Positions 51,001 to 57,000 of a stretch of DNA of 64,000 bases are shown one piece after another; positions within the stretch are counted from its first letter, which is position 1, and each line of letters begins with the position of its first letter. This DNA is from Cyanobacteria bacterium P01_A01_bin.123 (GTDB lineage Bacteria > Cyanobacteriota > Cyanobacteriia > Phormidesmidales > Phormidesmidaceae). The stretch lies in the NCBI GenBank assembly GCA_039815185.1, contig JBCBZT010000035.1, positions 25,467 through 89,466 on the forward strand, given 5' to 3'. Made by a program: the position numbers.

Positions 51001-54000
51001 GCCGTCGAATGCTGCGAGTTGTGTAATGATGTCCATGCTCCTTGACTCCCTATGGGACAGTATCGGACAGTGTCATCAGCTCTCCCAACGCTGTTAAAGC
51101 TTGCTCCAGTGCCTCTACAAACTGACTAGCTTGCCGATCTCGACTAGTTACATTGAGAACAATACTCTCCGGCTGAATGATATACCCAATACCGTAGCCA
51201 TGTTCCACAACTGGGCCAAAACAAAATGCATCAATCCCCATACCAGGAGCAAGGCTACTAGTCGACAGAACAGATTGACCTAATACTTCCGTATAAGCGC
51301 GATCTTTAAAAATAGCGGGGGTGATATTCTGCAGCCGAGCGATTTGCTGCAAAGCCGCCAAGTGCCTGTCCGCACCATATCCTTGTTGACAGGCACGCTG
51401 GCGGGCAACGTGGGCCGACACAGCAGCTTTCAGGGCAATATACTTTTGCTCATTGGAGGCTGAAGTAGAGAATAAGTTGCAAAGTTCAACTGACTCTGGC
51501 GTGACTGATCGCATCGCTTCTGTGCGACCATAACGAAAACGTCTAGTGTGCACTGATTCATAGGTGCAGGCACGTTTTCCATGTCGTTTCCCATAGGCCA
51601 GTTGAATTGCTAATTGAACGGTAGCGTCAGGGCTGAGTAAATGGTGCTTGATATACTTCCGACCAAACTCGGTGAACCGCAGTAATACAGATGCTGTCTT
51701 ATCAATTAACTGGTCAATTGCAGCCGTGGCCAGCTGAATTTCTTCTCGAATTTCTTCGGTTAAATCCCAGTTCAACTGCTGGGGCGATTTATGTTTTTCT
51801 AAATTTAGAGTATCCAATGGCTGATTTAGCTGTTGGCTAATCTGCTGGATTTCATAGAGACAACGCATCACAGCATAGCCATCTAAACCACAGTGTTCAA
51901 CATTAATGCCAGCCCAACCATTCTTTGTGAAAATGAACTGTAAAGGTTTATCGAACCAGCGGTTGCGTCCATTACCATGCAGGGCTGAACGAGCCGCTGC
52001 TGCCAGGTTTTGGGGTTCTGTATCGTCCAAGCAAACGACGAATAATGCACTGTCCAATAATTGTAAGGTGTCAACATTTACGGATGATATAGCGGTTAGG
52101 CTATTGCGTAATATCGCCCATCCCGTACGATTGAGCGTTGTTAGCGCACCGACCGTGGGCTCTTTGGCGTAGTCTTGGGCAACGATGGCTCTGAGTTGCT
52201 GCTCAATAGCCTCGATGGACGCGATTTGATTACCGTCAACTAGCTCAAGAGAGAAAAAAATATTTTGCCAGACGACAACAATATTTTGTTTATTTTGGCG
52301 GGGTTTTAGTGAGTCTCGATTTATACCAGGAACTCTGGCACACCCAAATAAGTTTTCATACTGAGTCATGCAGAGTGGTCGCCCCCCAGATTTAGGCGAC
52401 TCCTGATCTGGCGAGAGAGAACCCGCCTTGATCTGTAGATAAAATTGAAGACTGCAGTGGATCCAAGTGGCAGCTAGCTGAGTCAACGATGCGTCAGCAG
52501 TTTTATCCAGTGGGGTGAGAACGCCCCCAAAGTTGATGTGGATAGGCAGAGGGGAACGATTTTCCAAGAAGTTTTTGACGCCAAGGTCATATAGATAACT
52601 GGTTTTGGTAGCCTTGTGAACCAGTTCTAATTGCTTTTGCAGTCTAGGGCCGATGCTATTTTGGAAATCGGTCACCTGATTTCGGGTAGCTTCTAACTCG
52701 GTTGGGTTTAGGAGGGGAGCTAAGACATCAAGATAGAGTTTGCAGGTTTGATCTAATGCGGGTAAGGGCAGATTGGGTAGAGATTTTTGGAACTTATACA
52801 TGATTTCAAGGCCTCTAAACTTTTGAGAGTGGCTCTAAACCACATCCGATTTGAAACCTGGAGTTTTTGCTTAAGGAAAAACTGTGGATCTGGATGTGGA
52901 CGCGGTTTAAGTGAAAATGTTTTCTGGATTACTAAGTGCCTTAGAAAACATTTCCATGCTGGAATACCTCGTTAAACACTTTCTACAGCATTAGGGGAGT
53001 ATCCCGGAGGTCTATAGATGCCTATTACAATCTTTATACCTGAGGTTTCCTCAACACAGCATTTCTCTCAATCTCGTGCTGGTAGGGCAAGCTAACGTCT
53101 ATACATTGAGAGTGCTTCAATCGCTTATTCAATGGTACTTTAAGATAAAAATAATATTTCCTCTAGATTTGCAGAGGCATCGCAGCAGACAACCTAGAAT
53201 TCAGTAATCTGTTTAGTGGCATCAGTAAAAGCGGTATTTAACGCTATGTTTGATTCGATATTAAAACTTACCCTTGAGGAAATCATTGATTTTCACCGCT
53301 ATCCACTTCATACCTCGTCTACTCAGGCAGGCCATACGCTGATTAAATATTGTCAGACTGAGTTAGCGAGCCATGGCTACATCATCCTTAAACGCTTTAT
53401 TGCAAGCGATGCTTTAAGACTAGCTCAAATAGAATGCCAGAGACTATCACCCTTAGCTCAATATTCTGTCAGATACACAAATCCTTATAAAACTGAAGAT
53501 GATCCGACACTACCTTTAGAGCATCCAATACGACACTTTGCACTCAGAACCAATGCGTTTATTGCGAAAAGTAACTTTAGTGAGAATTCGATCTTTCAAA
53601 CGTTATATCACTCCCAGCTACTCAAAAGATTTCTGGCATCCTGTGTAGAACTCAATAGGGTTTATGAATATGCAGATCCATTAGGGGCACTAGTTCTTAA
53701 TGTTCTGTCTCCTGGAGGCCAACACCCCTGGCATTTTGATGAAAATGATTTTAGTGCTGTTTTGATGATACAAACCCCCAAGCAAGGCGGAGTATTTCAG
53801 ATAGCACCCAATATTCGGACATTTGCAGCAGAGAACTTTGAACAGGTTAGTCAGGTGTTACAGGGCAAGTCTAAACAAGACCAAAGTGTTAACTTAGATC
53901 AAGGAGATCTGATCATTTTTAATGGAAAGCTATCTTTACACAGAGTCACTGAAGTGCTCGGCAAGAAAGAACGATATACCATTGTCTTTAGCTATGCCCA

Positions 54001-57000
54001 GCAACCCGGTAGAGTAGGGCGTCTTGAAAACAACTCTAAAGTTTTTGGTTGATCTTATGACAATCTTCAGGCCACAAAAAATCACCTTTTTTCCTTCCAA
54101 CCACAGCACAATAATAAATTGGCTGTTTGTTCATTGAAAGTCGATGTTGATAGTGATGAATATTATTCACCTGGAAGATTTTGTTCGCGATCGCGGATTG
54201 GAGAAATTGGTAAAAATCATCATTTGAACTATACTCTGGATCTAGTTTTAATTGCCCCACATTGAATGCAATCCAACTATTATCAGCAATTAAGTTAAAT
54301 GCTTCGACAAAGGCTTTTGCAGGCAAATGCCAAGTCAAGGCAGAACAGCAGGTAAGACAATTAAATTGGTAGTTTTTTAATGACAATCTCGTTTCTTCGG
54401 GCAGTTCTAAAAGGTCAGCAACATAATAGTCTAAGTAAGTATCGGGAAGATCACGACATGATGCTTCACGAGCCTCTGATAGAATGTCGAGACCGATTAC
54501 ACACCCAACTCCATTCTCAATTAAACTCCTTCCGGAAACCCCTATCCCTGCTCCAATATCAAGAACCTTTAGATCAGCCATTGAGCCCCCAGCTTGTGAA
54601 ACTTGATCAAGTAATAGCGAAGATAAAGTAGCAGGAGACTGGTCATCTAAAATATCTATGAGTACATGTTTATAAAGCCCTGGAATCTTATAAATCTTGG
54701 CGTAATCATGAAGCTTTAGGACTTGCTCTTTATCTCCAGATATGACAGTAAAGTATTCATCTTCCTGAGAGCGAATCTCGCTGCTTTTAGGCATCCGAAC
54801 CAAAAAGTTCTTCTGTTGAGGAATCTCTAAATTTTTCATAATTCAAATGAACCCCTATGAAAACAACTCAGATTAAAGCATATATAGCAGTAGCCACAAA
54901 GCTTTGCGCGCTACCACGAGCCAGATTGCTTGTGGACTAAGCATCCTGGCAGTACTCAGTGCATTAAGCAATCTGGCCAGCGTCATAAAACAGCAACAAT
55001 CTACCTTGCTGAAAGAGGCACGATGGTTTCAATGCAAGCGCAAAAATGTCCGAAAGACCCGTATTTCACCATTAGAACATTGGCCGATCAAGTTTTTAGA
55101 ACCAACAAAGTCTAGTGCTTAAGAAAGTAGTCTGTGAACTGAAGAAGTTGCCGCCTTGAGTTTTCATAGTGAAGATGATCAGATTGCTTAATCGCATGAG
55201 TACAACGCAACCCATAGGCCGCCGTATATACCAAAGCTGCTCCTAAAATCCGATATTCTTCGAGTGAGAAAGGCTGTCCTCTTTCGCTTTCATAAATGTT
55301 AATAAATCCTTGTGCTTCTGCTATGCTAATAGCCGTTTCGGGTGGGCCATAGCGCCAGTCGTGGCGATAGCAGCGGGCCGCGCCACCCACAAAGCAGGGT
55401 TCGAGTCCAACGCGTAGGGAATCCCAGTCGTAAACACAGGTGAGTTGTCCCTGGCAAAAGCTCATATTTTGCAGCGACCAGTCCGAATGGCCAATCACCC
55501 AGGGCCCAGTTGCTTCACGTAAAATTTGTTTAGCCCAGAGCGCAATTTGATCAATCCACTCAGCCCCAGTCGCCGTTTTTTCAAAATCAAATAGAACGCT
55601 GTGGGGTTGATGCCAAAGTTGGTCTCGATCCATTTCCATCCAAATGGGTAAATCGTGGTGTGGATAGGATTTTGCCTGCCGGATTAGCTGTGCCAGGTAA
55701 CGAGCCATCGTATGACTGATGTTGGCAGCATTTGACTTTACCCGTTCGCCAGGGTCACAAAATGTCTGGGCGGTGAGTAGCGTTGCGTCAAAGGGCTGGG
55801 GAAGTTGCAAGACCTCTGGACAAGGAAAGCCTGTCTCTGCAAGTGCTTTTTGTAGACCGAAGCTAGCGGTGAGGGCTTTTGGGCTATGTCGCTGACCATA
55901 GGCCTTGAGTACAACTTTTGTGCCGTCGGTCAATTGCACCACAACCGTTGCACCAACTGAAATATAGGCAAAGGTACAAGCCGCGATCGCCCGCTTGAAC
56001 ACCGCTTGACAGTACCGATCGAGCAAGTCGCTGATGGCATCAACATCTGCTGTGCCAAAAATTGAGCGGGCTACGGCTACATCACTCGCGTCAACAATTT
56101 GCTGTTCTAACTGCGATCGCATTTGTCAACTCAAACCCACCCCATTGCTCCGCGTCTGAAACAACTCCAGCATTGATTCAAGTCTGAGATCACAATTGAC
56201 ATTAGCTAAGTATATTAATTGATCTCCAATTTAGAATCTAAGCTTATAGATTGGATTTAACATTCTTCTCACATTTTGCTGCAAATGGCATTGGAGACAT
56301 AAGTTTTTTACGATAGACTTGAATTCATAGAGAAGCAAAGTTAAATAGATTTAAATCTATGGACTTTAAGGAGTGGCCAATGCGATCGCCCCATCCTTAA
56401 AGTCCAGGGCTTGGCTTCTCTTAAGCGCAACTTCGATTGAATCTCCAATCAACTCCTGTGAAATGGGGGGAGCGCTTCCCCCCACTTTCCTAACAACATT
56501 CGATCGACATCAGAAATTGGCCTAAAAGTCCTGTGAGGCAAGCAATTCAGAACACATGATAGGCATGGAGTGGACATTATGAATAAGTTTGAATCGAAAC
56601 AGTCACAACCCAAACTGGACAATGATGAAGGCTGGATCGTGCAGGTATATGGCAGCAACCGCCGCTTGCTCTGTGTCTTAGAACCTTCTCACGGCTGGAT
56701 TTTTCTAGTTGGCTGTTGCGTGGGCTTGTTGCTATCAATCATTTGGTTCAACGCAGCTCGCTACAGCTCTCCGGTCGAACCAACCACCCCAACTGAAGCT
56801 CCGGCATTGCAGATAGATTAGGGCACCATCCTGTGGCGTCGTTTTTTCTATCGGTTTACCCCGGCGAAACATTCAGTCACCAGTGTATTGAACAACAGGA
56901 GTTCTTCTAACGCATACAGGTTAGCGAGAGACGATATCTCCTCAACAGGATTGTTACCCAGCGATCGCGATCGCAGCGGAGTGACATCTTCGATGTGATT

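What a model noticed while it worked through the whole genome (the two positions that open the first line are those of the whole stretch)
51050..54052. Choline/carnitine O-acyltransferase homologue paired with a HalD/BesD-family Fe/2OG hydroxylase
g05790 (583 aa) is a full-length choline/carnitine O-acyltransferase homologue (EHxxxDG present), a family in under 1% of bacterial genomes; divergently next to it lies g05791 (268 aa), a HalD/BesD/WelO5-family Fe(II)/2-oxoglutarate enzyme with an H-x-D iron motif, i.e. a hydroxylase, not a halogenase. The two families are neighbours in 861 of the 934 genomes that have both, so they form one functional unit: hydroxylation of a small substrate followed by O-acylation of the new hydroxyl, a carnitine-like chemistry not described in bacteria.
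Evidence so far: Carn_acyltransf 1.9e-169 over 1-574 of 574; HalD 3.5e-16, WelO5 6e-9; motifs NVEHCGLDG, HPWHFDEND, LSLHRV read in the sequences. neighbours.tsv: near in 861 of 934 genomes with both; relatives.tsv: Carn_acyltransf in 30 of 3329 cyanobacteria and 1732 of 189784 bacteria, HalD in 78 of 3329. Atlas: nearest bacterial clusters are Actinomycetota carnitine O-acetyltransferase-like.
(Added by a program. Inside this text positions count along the whole contig: contig position 25,467 is position 1 of the stretch shown here. "Call 12" and the like, gene names such as g00115 and contig names such as C1 are that model's own, and its searches are not shown. The text may have been shortened before it was handed on; [...] marks where a part breaks off. 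The agent that wrote the report below was given it as the finding of a first reader that could run no searches.)

Follow-up and report, generated by a model that had tools for sequence, protein, structure and literature searches.

The report
Hydroxylase plus carnitine-type acyltransferase gene module
A marine cyanobacterium carries a conserved gene set (an iron-dependent hydroxylase, a carnitine-type acyltransferase and a methyltransferase) that probably makes an acylated, carnitine-like small molecule, a chemistry not yet shown in bacteria.

Summary
Both genes are real and intact. One is a 583-aa Carn_acyltransf protein (51050..52801, -). The other is a HalD/BesD-type Fe/2OG oxygenase with an HxD...H triad (53246..54052, +). 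They are transcribed divergently.

I scanned 80 metagenome loci that carry relatives of the oxygenase. The pairing is specific to certain clades and complete within them. In the cyanobacterial clade the acyltransferase is adjacent in 10 of 11 rows. In an actinobacteria-like clade it is adjacent in 19 of 26. Every locus without it has too little flanking DNA to tell.

The remaining 44 relatives never have the acyltransferase. In 38 of them a DddP-like M24 enzyme lies directly downstream. Some also have a betaine-type (OpuAC) ABC importer.

A class-I methyltransferase is a recurrent third member. In the window it lies at 54036..54839.

The window's acyltransferase keeps the catalytic His and the residues that bind carnitine's carboxylate and ammonium group. 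The oxygenase keeps the Arg that binds the substrate carboxylate in HalB.

Best reading: a small ammonium carboxylate, possibly gamma-butyrobetaine, is hydroxylated and then O-acylated with a short acyl group. The substrate is not proven. No description of this module turned up in the literature searches I ran.

The parts
51050..52801 (-). Choline/carnitine O-acyltransferase homologue (583 aa), predicted to prefer short acyl chains and a carnitine-type acceptor
   Evidence: PF00755 at 5.6e-169, full length. Matches ChAT 2fy2 at 8.6e-71 and CrAT 1nm8 at 1.2e-68. H303 (catalytic), Y414, T427 and R479 (carnitine carboxylate), and F528 and V531 (ammonium pocket) align with CrAT His322, Tyr431, Thr444, Arg497, Phe545 and Val548 (residue roles from PMC11820905).
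52802..53245 (.). Shared divergent intergenic region, presumably holding the promoters for both genes
   Evidence: The divergent arrangement is kept in all 10 cyanobacterial loci that hold the acyltransferase, with tblastn-match-to-match gaps of 88-301 bp against 415 bp in the window by the same measure. There is no Rfam match and no sigma-70 consensus hit.
53246..54052 (+). HalD/BesD-type Fe(II)/2-oxoglutarate oxygenase with a hydroxylase-type triad: H173, D175, H242 in numbering of the 278-aa ORF from 53216
   Evidence: PF23169 at 4.6e-16. The family profile matches HalB at 2.6e-10 and HalD at 3.5e-9. H173, D175, H242 and R253 are invariant in 20 relatives. Invariant R111 aligns with HalB Arg83, which binds the substrate carboxylate.
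54036..54839 (-). Class-I SAM methyltransferase-like protein (267 aa), convergent with the oxygenase and overlapping its 3' end by 17 bp; likely third member of the module
   Evidence: Methyltransf_25 at 1.5e-5, below the Pfam cut-off. The AlphaFold model has pLDDT 81 and a class-I MT fold: best VIA match is PrmA 3grz (Z 14.9, rmsd 2.6, 152 aligned), tied with many other MTs. Orthologues sit beside the pair in L005, L006 and L013. Orthologues also share longest-contig lengths with the pair in 5 further records. It shows distant profile similarity to the actinobacterial-type third gene: hhalign probability 51%, E 1.5e-4.

Best explanation
The window holds a compact biosynthetic module. The oxygenase binds a small zwitterionic substrate through its carboxylate and hydroxylates an unactivated carbon, most likely the one next to a CH2-N+ group. 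That would give a beta-hydroxy-ammonium acid. The acyltransferase then moves a short acyl group, probably acetyl, from acyl-CoA onto the new hydroxyl, using the catalytic His and the ammonium-assisted mechanism of carnitine acyltransferases. The adjacent class-I methyltransferase probably builds or completes the methylated ammonium head group. For this window the leading specific candidate is gamma-butyrobetaine converted to carnitine and then to O-acetylcarnitine, or a close chain-length analogue.

Shown here: gene integrity, catalytic motifs, clade-specific conserved adjacency, and conservation of substrate-contacting residues. Inferred: the substrate, the site of hydroxylation, the order of steps, the acyl donor and the physiological role (compatible solute, CoA/acetyl buffering or precursor).
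For: (1) Adjacency. In a tree of 81 oxygenases (the window plus 80 metagenome loci), the cyanobacterial clade (SH-aLRT 100) has the acyltransferase divergent upstream in 10 of 11 rows; the 11th has only 96 bp upstream. An actinobacteria-like clade (SH-aLRT 99) has it downstream on the same strand in 19 of 26 rows; the other 7 have 42-988 bp downstream. Ten acyltransferase/oxygenase cluster pairs also share the same longest-contig length, some as short as 3126 and 5623 bp.
(2) Acyltransferase residues. The catalytic His and the Tyr, Thr and Arg that bind carnitine's carboxylate are kept, as are the Phe and Val of the ammonium pocket. At the Thr and Arg positions the protein follows CrAT, not ChAT, which has Val and Asn. 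A bulky Phe sits where CrAT has Met, while CPT2 aligns a gap or Gly there.
(3) Oxygenase residues. It has the HxD...H triad, and invariant R111 aligns with HalB Arg83, the carboxylate binder. Its best solved relatives, HalB and HalD, act on the carbon next to the terminal CH2-NH3+ of Lys and Orn (PMC10041140).
(4) Substrate class from relatives. 44 oxygenase positions are identical across all three clades and only 3 discriminate between them, so the substrate class is probably shared. The sister clades sit in operons with an OpuAC/OsmF-type betaine ABC importer (10 of 44) and a DddP-like lyase (38 of 44). One acyltransferase-linked locus (L066) also has the OpuAC importer.
(5) Methyltransferase. 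A class-I methyltransferase recurs: 4 of 11 cyanobacterial rows and 14 of 26 actinobacteria-like rows.
Against: There is no biochemical or expression evidence. All characterised BesD-family members use free Lys or Orn, not betaines. The actinobacteria-like acyltransferases have Gln in place of the carboxylate-binding Arg in 8 of 8 readable sequences, so their acceptor may differ from carnitine. The methyltransferase is missing next to the pair in most heterocystous-clade loci, and its family (~40% identity) is widespread in cyanobacteria that are not on record with the acyltransferase. Fold matches for both methyltransferases are generic. The two bacterial acyltransferase clades are not sisters in a quick tree, so the pairing may have arisen twice. 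If the sister clades use the same hydroxylated product, I cannot write a convincing DddP-type cleavage of carnitine itself. That argues for a different chain length or for a sulfonium analogue.
Confidence: 0.55

Rival explanations
1. The substrate is a free basic amino acid (Lys or Orn, perhaps N-methylated), as for every characterised BesD/HalB/HalD relative. The oxygenase would make 5-hydroxylysine or 4-hydroxyornithine, which carries a choline-like HO-CH-CH2-N+ head. The acyltransferase would O-acylate it, either to give a final product or as a cryptic leaving group for later chemistry in a natural-product pathway.
For: The closest solved relatives are Lys and Orn halogenases and hydroxylases. 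The carboxylate-binding Arg is conserved. Two near-identical actinobacteria-like loci (L057, L083) have an M20 peptidase and an SSF transporter upstream, and L057 also has a PLP enzyme. The top VIA hit for the window's methyltransferase is PrmA, a lysine N-trimethylating enzyme, although that hit is tied with many others.
Against: The position after the Fe-binding Asp is variable in this family (E, T, S, R, Q or N), whereas the Lys enzymes have HWGD or HWDD there. The cyanobacterial acyltransferase keeps the exact carnitine carboxylate triad, which fits a carboxylate two carbons from the carbinol. No NRPS, PKS or other tailoring genes are conserved nearby. The OpuAC importers and DddP-like partners of the sister clades point to betaines.
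Confidence: 0.2
2. The module is for salvage or catabolism and runs in the other order. Imported acyl-betaines or acylcarnitines are converted by the acyltransferase to acyl-CoA plus the free betaine, which conserves the ester energy. The oxygenase then oxidises the betaine for breakdown.
For: Carnitine acyltransfer is freely reversible (PMC11852590). The sister oxygenase clades sit in clearly catabolic-looking operons with a LysR regulator, an ABC importer, a lyase and an aldehyde dehydrogenase. L066 couples the pair to an OpuAC importer.
Against: No downstream catabolic genes are conserved with the acyltransferase-linked clades. The presence of a methyltransferase suggests synthesis. In this scheme the oxygenase would not need the acyltransferase nearby, yet the pair is never split in loci that can be assessed.
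Confidence: 0.12
3. The two genes are neighbours without a shared pathway, and the association is historical.
For: The neighbourhoods outside the pair are highly variable. The arrangement differs between clades, divergent in one and co-directional in the other.
Against: All 29 assessable loci in the two clades keep the pair, across oxygenase identities down to 37-41% and across two gene orders. Adjacency that survives rearrangement argues for selection.
Confidence: 0.05

Closest known systems
Last step of eukaryotic carnitine biosynthesis plus carnitine acetyltransferase (BBOX1 followed by CrAT)
   Same: An Fe(II)/2OG hydroxylation creates a beta-hydroxy-ammonium acid, which a Carn_acyltransf enzyme then O-acylates. 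The window's acyltransferase shares the catalytic His, the carnitine carboxylate ligands and the ammonium pocket with CrAT.
   Different: The oxygenase belongs to the HalD/BesD branch; Pfam reports only HalD, WelO5 and generic 2OG-FeII_Oxy families and lists no other family for it. That BBOX1 belongs to a TauD-type family is my recollection. The genes are bacterial and clustered. A methyltransferase accompanies them, rather than the trimethyllysine, aldolase and dehydrogenase route. [quoted passage not shown]
BesD/HalB/HalD radical amino-acid halogenases and their lysine hydroxylase relatives (PDB 6nie, 7u6i, 7u6h, 7jsd)
   Same: The Pfam family is the same, and the profile matches at E 2.6e-10 to 3.4e-8. 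The Fe ligands sit at the same positions. The carboxylate-binding Arg (HalB Arg83) is conserved.
   Different: This protein has HxD, not HxG. Single-sequence matches are only about E 1e-5. The profile alignment to HalB shows a 13-residue stretch before the Arg (conserved TNPY...DDP.LP..HP.R) that HalB lacks. The partners are different, and no Bes-type downstream genes are present.
DMSP lyase DddP catabolic clusters (for the sister oxygenase clades)
   Same: The sister clades combine a LysR regulator, an M24 enzyme whose best hit is NF043017 DddP (4.3e-95), an MMSDH-type dehydrogenase (TIGR01722, 644 bits) and an osmolyte-type importer.
   Different: The M24 protein scores 319 bits against a cut-off of 600, so it is a paralogue and not DddP. 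An Fe/2OG oxygenase precedes it. The window itself has none of these genes.

Membership tests
Choline/carnitine O-acyltransferase (PF00755) | Full-length two-domain match to the family profile | tested here: met
   5.6e-169, 563.8 bits against a cut-off of 22.3, profile positions 1-574 of 574.
Choline/carnitine O-acyltransferase (PF00755) | Catalytic His in the EHxxxDG motif | tested here: met
   NVEHCGLDG; H303 aligns with the CrAT catalytic His. The role of this His is from PMC11852590.
Carnitine (not choline) acyltransferase subtype | Tyr, Thr and Arg that hydrogen-bond the carnitine carboxylate (CrAT Tyr431, Thr444, Arg497 in 1S5O numbering) | tested here: met
   Y414, T427 and R479 align with them. 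ChAT has Val and Asn at the Thr and Arg positions. Residue roles come from a passage of PMC11820905. The 12 cyanobacterial sequences in the alignment that group with the paired acyltransferases keep all three. The 8 actinobacteria-like sequences have Gln for the Arg.
Carnitine (not choline) acyltransferase subtype | Hydrophobic pocket for the quaternary nitrogen (CrAT Phe545, Val548) | tested here: met
   F528 and V531 align with them.
Carnitine (not choline) acyltransferase subtype | Measured acyl transfer to L-carnitine | not testable with these tools
   Needs an enzyme assay.
HalD/BesD Fe(II)/2OG family (PF23169) | Family profile match above the curated cut-off | tested here: met
   59.4 bits against a cut-off of 26, E 4.6e-16. 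The family profile A1 matches HalB at 2.6e-10 and HalD at 3.5e-9.
HalD/BesD Fe(II)/2OG family (PF23169) | Halogenase signature: Gly or Ala in place of the carboxylate Fe ligand (HxG) | tested here: not met
   The protein has H173-F-D175. The Asp aligns with Gly of lysine halogenase 9oew and with Asp of lysine hydroxylase 7jsd. It is invariant in 20 relatives. This makes it a hydroxylase-type member, not a halogenase.
HalD/BesD Fe(II)/2OG family (PF23169) | Arg that binds the substrate carboxylate (HalB Arg83) | tested here: met
   Invariant R111 aligns with HalB R83 in the profile alignment. Its role is from PMC10041140.
HalD/BesD Fe(II)/2OG family (PF23169) | Free Lys or Orn as substrate | not testable with these tools
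   The residue after the Fe-binding Asp is variable here, whereas the Lys enzymes have Asp there. This is suggestive only.
Gamma-butyrobetaine dioxygenase (BBOX) | Sequence membership in the BBOX family (a TauD-type family, by recollection) | tested here: not met
   Pfam reports only HalD, WelO5, 2OG-FeII_Oxy_5 and 2OG-FeII_Oxy_3 for this protein. The oxygenase may work like BBOX, but it is not a member of that family.
Class-I SAM-dependent methyltransferase (third gene) | Rossmann-like MT fold with a GxGxG SAM motif | tested here: met
   The motif VLDIGAGIG is present. The model has pLDDT 81. Foldseek probability is 1.00 to many MTs. VIA gives Z 14.9 to PrmA, tied with others. The Pfam hit itself is below the cut-off, 26.1 against 27 bits.

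The most novel reading that the evidence does not exclude
Bacteria have their own de novo route to carnitine or acetylcarnitine, or a close homologue. A class-I methyltransferase would trimethylate an omega-amino acid such as GABA. A HalD/BesD-type Fe/2OG enzyme, not homologous to BBOX, would hydroxylate the resulting betaine. A bona fide carnitine acetyltransferase would then esterify it. The same oxygenase family would also feed an unrecognised betaine or sulfonium catabolic pathway through DddP-like lyases in marine and hypersaline bacteria.
Probability: 0.2. Interest if true: 0.85.

Novelty: new variant of a known kind. Interest (0 to 1): 0.66.

Why it matters
Carnitine acyltransferases are regarded as eukaryotic organelle enzymes, and carnitine synthesis is said not to occur in prokaryotes (abstract of PMC8085414, seen in the listing). 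A conserved bacterial cassette that pairs such an enzyme with a hydroxylase, and often with a methyltransferase, gives a directly testable candidate for bacterial synthesis of acyl-carnitine-like solutes.

It would also assign a first function to a large uncharacterised HxD branch of the HalD/BesD family. Database records currently name members of that branch 'HalD/BesD family halogenase'. The sister operons point to an undescribed pathway for breaking down onium compounds in marine and saline habitats. The enzymes could be useful for biocatalytic production of L-carnitine.

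Tried and rejected
- **Literature.** None returned a paper on this gene pair, on a HalD/BesD-type enzyme acting on betaines, or on the DddP-like operon. The query was poorly chosen and uninformative.
- **Earlier notes of this scan.** Nothing by place, words or sequence.
- **NCBIfam.** No model matches the acyltransferase, the oxygenase, the methyltransferase, the APH kinase or the 175-aa protein.
- **Atlas.** The oxygenase only returned 'HalD/BesD family' clusters.
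- **RNA elements and promoters.** No Rfam match in 48000..57500. No sigma-70 consensus in the intergenic region.
- **Expression.** No RNA holder was listed for the locus.
- **Other window neighbours.** The 175-aa protein, PEMT/ICMT, the APH kinase and the SnoaL-like protein have no counterpart in any of the 80 loci. I rejected them as module members. In L002 the genes downstream of the acyltransferase are rhomboids.
- **Methyltransferase specificity.** Foldseek and VIA gave only generic class-I MT matches. BLAST between the two methyltransferase types found nothing. Only hhalign gave a weak link.
- **BesD residue search.** A text search in the BesD preprint found none of the recalled residue names.
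- **Genome scan.** The genome-contig scan with the acyltransferase gave only 2 loci.
- **Tree.** The careful tree did not finish, so the quick IQ-TREE result was used.

Full report
**Observation**

The finding's coordinates are window coordinates. ORF 51050..52801 (-) encodes 583 aa, and ORF 53216..54052 (+) encodes 278 aa from a GTG. Homologues and the Atlas record start at the ATG at 53246, which gives 268 aa.

Pfam assigns Carn_acyltransf at 5.6e-169 over the whole profile to the first protein. It assigns HalD at 4.6e-16 and WelO5 at 1.2e-8 to the second.

Against solved structures the acyltransferase matches ChAT (8.6e-71), CrAT (1.2e-68), CPT2 and COT. The oxygenase matches lysine halogenases and hydroxylases and HalD/HalB, weakly as a single sequence (about 1e-5) and better as a family profile (HalB 2.6e-10, HalD 3.5e-9). 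D175 of its HxD motif aligns with Asp in a lysine hydroxylase and with Gly in a halogenase. H173, D175 and H242 are invariant in 20 relatives. So this is a hydroxylase-type enzyme.

Both families are single-copy in the genome and absent from 14 control genomes.

**Is the pair a unit?**

A profile of the oxygenase family retrieved 80 metagenome loci with up to 10 kb of flanking DNA. tblastn found an acyltransferase next to the oxygenase in 28 of the 80.

I built a quick IQ-TREE of the 81 oxygenases without reference to their neighbours. It splits them as follows.

| Clade | Rows | Acyltransferase adjacent | Notes |
|---|---|---|---|
| Cyanobacterial (SH-aLRT 100), includes the window | 11 | 10, divergent upstream | The 11th (L010) has 96 bp upstream |
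| Actinobacteria-like (SH-aLRT 99) | 26 | 19, downstream on the same strand | The other 7 have only 42-988 bp downstream |
| Remaining rows | 44 | 0 | 38 have a DddP-like M24 gene directly downstream |

Of the 6 remaining rows without the M24 gene, 3 lack flanking DNA. L045 has the M24 gene 4.2 kb away. L048 and L053 have none.

So the pairing is clade-specific, and within its clades it has no assessable exception (29 of 29).

There is also indirect support. Ten cyanobacterial acyltransferase clusters and ten oxygenase clusters share the same longest-contig length (69146, 64840, 5623, 28320, 284371, 3126, 12437, 7921362, 29180 and 9723 bp). In G401 the two genes each lie about 140 bp from the end of separate contigs, which fits a break in the intergenic region.

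In 400 other cyanobacterial genomes, sampled evenly, the acyltransferase was not found. An oxygenase relative was found once, in G252 at 2e-51. It sits there in an unrelated context (Coq4-like, GDSL lipase, RPE65), and that genome has no PF00755 hit.

**A third gene**

In the actinobacteria-like clade a ~270-aa protein lies in one of three positions:

- between the oxygenase and the acyltransferase in 7 loci;
- just after the oxygenase at a contig end in 3 loci;
- after the acyltransferase in 4 loci.

That is 14 of 26 rows in total, and 11 of the 14 loci where all positions can be assessed. Its model (pLDDT 87) has a class-I methyltransferase fold. The best VIA match is the N,N-dimethyltransferase TylM1 (Z 13.6, rmsd 2.9, 171 aligned), tied with many other methyltransferases.

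The three assessable loci that lack this gene have a transporter beside the pair: an OpuAC ABC system in L066 and an SSF symporter in the near-identical L057 and L083.

In the window, a 267-aa class-I methyltransferase (54036..54839, -) converges on the oxygenase. Orthologues sit beside the pair in L005, L006 and L013. Orthologues also share longest-contig lengths with the pair in five further records. The two methyltransferase types are not similar by BLAST. They align profile-to-profile at 51% probability, E 1.5e-4, over 126 columns, including a shared Y-x-IP-x-L stretch ahead of motif I.

The window-type methyltransferase belongs to a family found at about 40% identity in many cyanobacteria, including Moorena, Dolichospermum and Leptolyngbya PCC 7376. 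Those are not among the acyltransferase hits.

The remaining window neighbours (175-aa protein, PEMT/ICMT, APH kinase, SnoaL-like) have no counterpart in any of the 80 loci. Beyond the two or three core genes the neighbourhoods are highly variable.

**What the residues say**

PMC11820905 (passage read) states that CrAT binds the carnitine carboxylate through Tyr431, Arg497 and Thr444. It places the quaternary nitrogen in a pocket with Val548 and Phe545, with His322 as the catalytic residue. In the alignment to 1nm8 these correspond to Y414, R479, T427, V531, F528 and H303 of the window protein. All are conserved.

ChAT differs at the Thr and Arg positions, with Val and Asn. The 12 cyanobacterial sequences in the alignment that group with the paired acyltransferases keep the full set. 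The 8 readable actinobacteria-like sequences keep Tyr and Thr but have Gln for the Arg. Three divergent cyanobacterial homologues (P0039, P0042, P0044) have lost several of these residues.

CoA-contacting positions named in PMC11852590 (section 3 read) are conserved or conservatively replaced. K419 becomes R381, and K423, D430 and E453 are kept.

The position where mammalian CrAT has Met is Phe here, while CPT2 aligns a gap or Gly. That this Met limits acyl-chain length is my recollection. On that basis I predict a short-chain donor.

In the oxygenase, invariant R111 aligns with HalB Arg83. PMC10041140 (passages read) identifies that residue as the binder of the substrate carboxylate. The same paper describes HalB and HalD acting at C5 of lysine and C4 of ornithine, the carbon next to the terminal CH2-N+.

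Across the three oxygenase clades 44 positions are identical at 90% or more within each clade. Only three positions discriminate between clades. This suggests one shared substrate class.

**Context from the sister clades**

The relatives that lack the acyltransferase sit in operons with the following genes:

- a divergent LysR regulator;
- the oxygenase;
- an M24 protein whose best NCBIfam hit is DMSP lyase DddP (4.3e-95, 319 bits against a cut-off of 600);
- a CoA-acylating MMSDH-type dehydrogenase (TIGR01722, 644 bits; hits in 11 of 44);
- an OpuAC/OsmF-type ABC importer (10 of 44);
- a CN-hydrolase and an MmgE/PrpD protein.

Carn_acyltransf, DddP and OpuAC are three separate families, and each is known for handling small onium carboxylates. 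That all three converge on this oxygenase family is my main argument that its substrate is a betaine-like compound and not lysine or ornithine.

**Mechanism proposed**

The methyltransferase makes or completes a methylated ammonium acid, or an importer supplies one. The oxygenase binds it through R111 and hydroxylates the carbon beta to the nitrogen. The acyltransferase then transfers a short acyl group from acyl-CoA to that hydroxyl.

For the window the best specific guess is gamma-butyrobetaine converted to carnitine and then to acetylcarnitine, at about 25-30%. Chain-length analogues, N-methylated Lys or Orn derivatives, and sulfonium analogues remain open.

Two weak points stand out. The actinobacterial-type acyltransferase has Gln where the Arg should be. 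And I cannot write a DddP-type cleavage of carnitine for the sister clades.

**Comparison with what is known, and novelty**

Functionally the nearest analogue is BBOX1 followed by CrAT in eukaryotes. The oxygenase here is not a BBOX-family member. In a quick FastTree (limited sampling, midpoint root) the two bacterial acyltransferase clades are separated by eukaryotic sequences.

The ten literature searches listed under Tried and rejected found no description of the module. The enzymes are new members of known families. The conserved cassette and the inferred pathway are a new variant built from known parts.

**Verdict**

The function remains inferred.

Noticed in passing
window 20237..27319 (+) and 27624..33122 (+): Two very large ORFs carry Tc/ABC toxin-complex domains. 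The first (2360 aa) has SpvB, TcdB_toxin_midN/midC, FG-GAP and RHS repeats. The second (1832 aa) has ABC_toxin_N and TcA_TcB_BD. This is a TcB/TcC-like plus TcA-like pair in a marine cyanobacterium. I only described them.
   Followed up: no
window 2700..6923 (-), 16200..18272 (-), 13498..15003 (-): A 1407-aa protein with an eCIS_core domain, a 690-aa RTX-repeat protein, and an SNF (sodium:neurotransmitter symporter family) transporter.
   Followed up: no
L020 8937..18634; also L021, L026, L035, L039, L041, L046 and others: The sister clades of the oxygenase form a conserved operon: LysR, oxygenase, a DddP-like M24 enzyme, an MMSDH-type dehydrogenase, an OpuAC-type ABC importer, a CN-hydrolase and MmgE/PrpD. 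It looks like an undescribed catabolic pathway for a betaine or sulfonium osmolyte. The M24 gene lies directly downstream of the oxygenase in 38 of 44 rows.
   Followed up: partly
L089 (G252:C168:39000-52000), oxygenase relative at 6125..6946: One cyanobacterial genome has an oxygenase relative (2e-51 to the family profile) among Coq4-like, GDSL lipase, DUF4436, RPE65 and BT1 transporter genes. That genome has no PF00755 hit. This is a fourth context for the family.
   Followed up: partly
proteins P0039, P0042, P0044 (Planktothrix, Coleofasciculus, Microcoleus records): A divergent cyanobacterial branch of the acyltransferase has lost several carnitine-binding and STS-motif residues. None shares a longest-contig length with a listed oxygenase. 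It may be an unpaired subfamily with another function.
   Followed up: no
L002 (start) and L004 (start), genome G401: In this MAG the acyltransferase and the oxygenase each begin about 140 bp from the end of different contigs. The intergenic region of the pair seems to break the assembly.
   Followed up: no
window 54036..54839 (-) and relatives P0244-P0361: The methyltransferase next to the oxygenase belongs to a family found at about 40% identity in many cyanobacteria (Moorena, Dolichospermum, Symploca, Okeania, Leptolyngbya PCC 7376). Its function is unknown, and some records label it L11 methyltransferase or DNA methyltransferase.
   Followed up: partly
window 50509..51036 (-): A 175-aa helical protein with no Pfam or NCBIfam match lies 13 bp downstream of the acyltransferase. 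Apart from the near-identical contig L001, no counterpart was found: none in the 80 metagenome loci and no similarity to the gene downstream of the acyltransferase in L002.
   Followed up: partly
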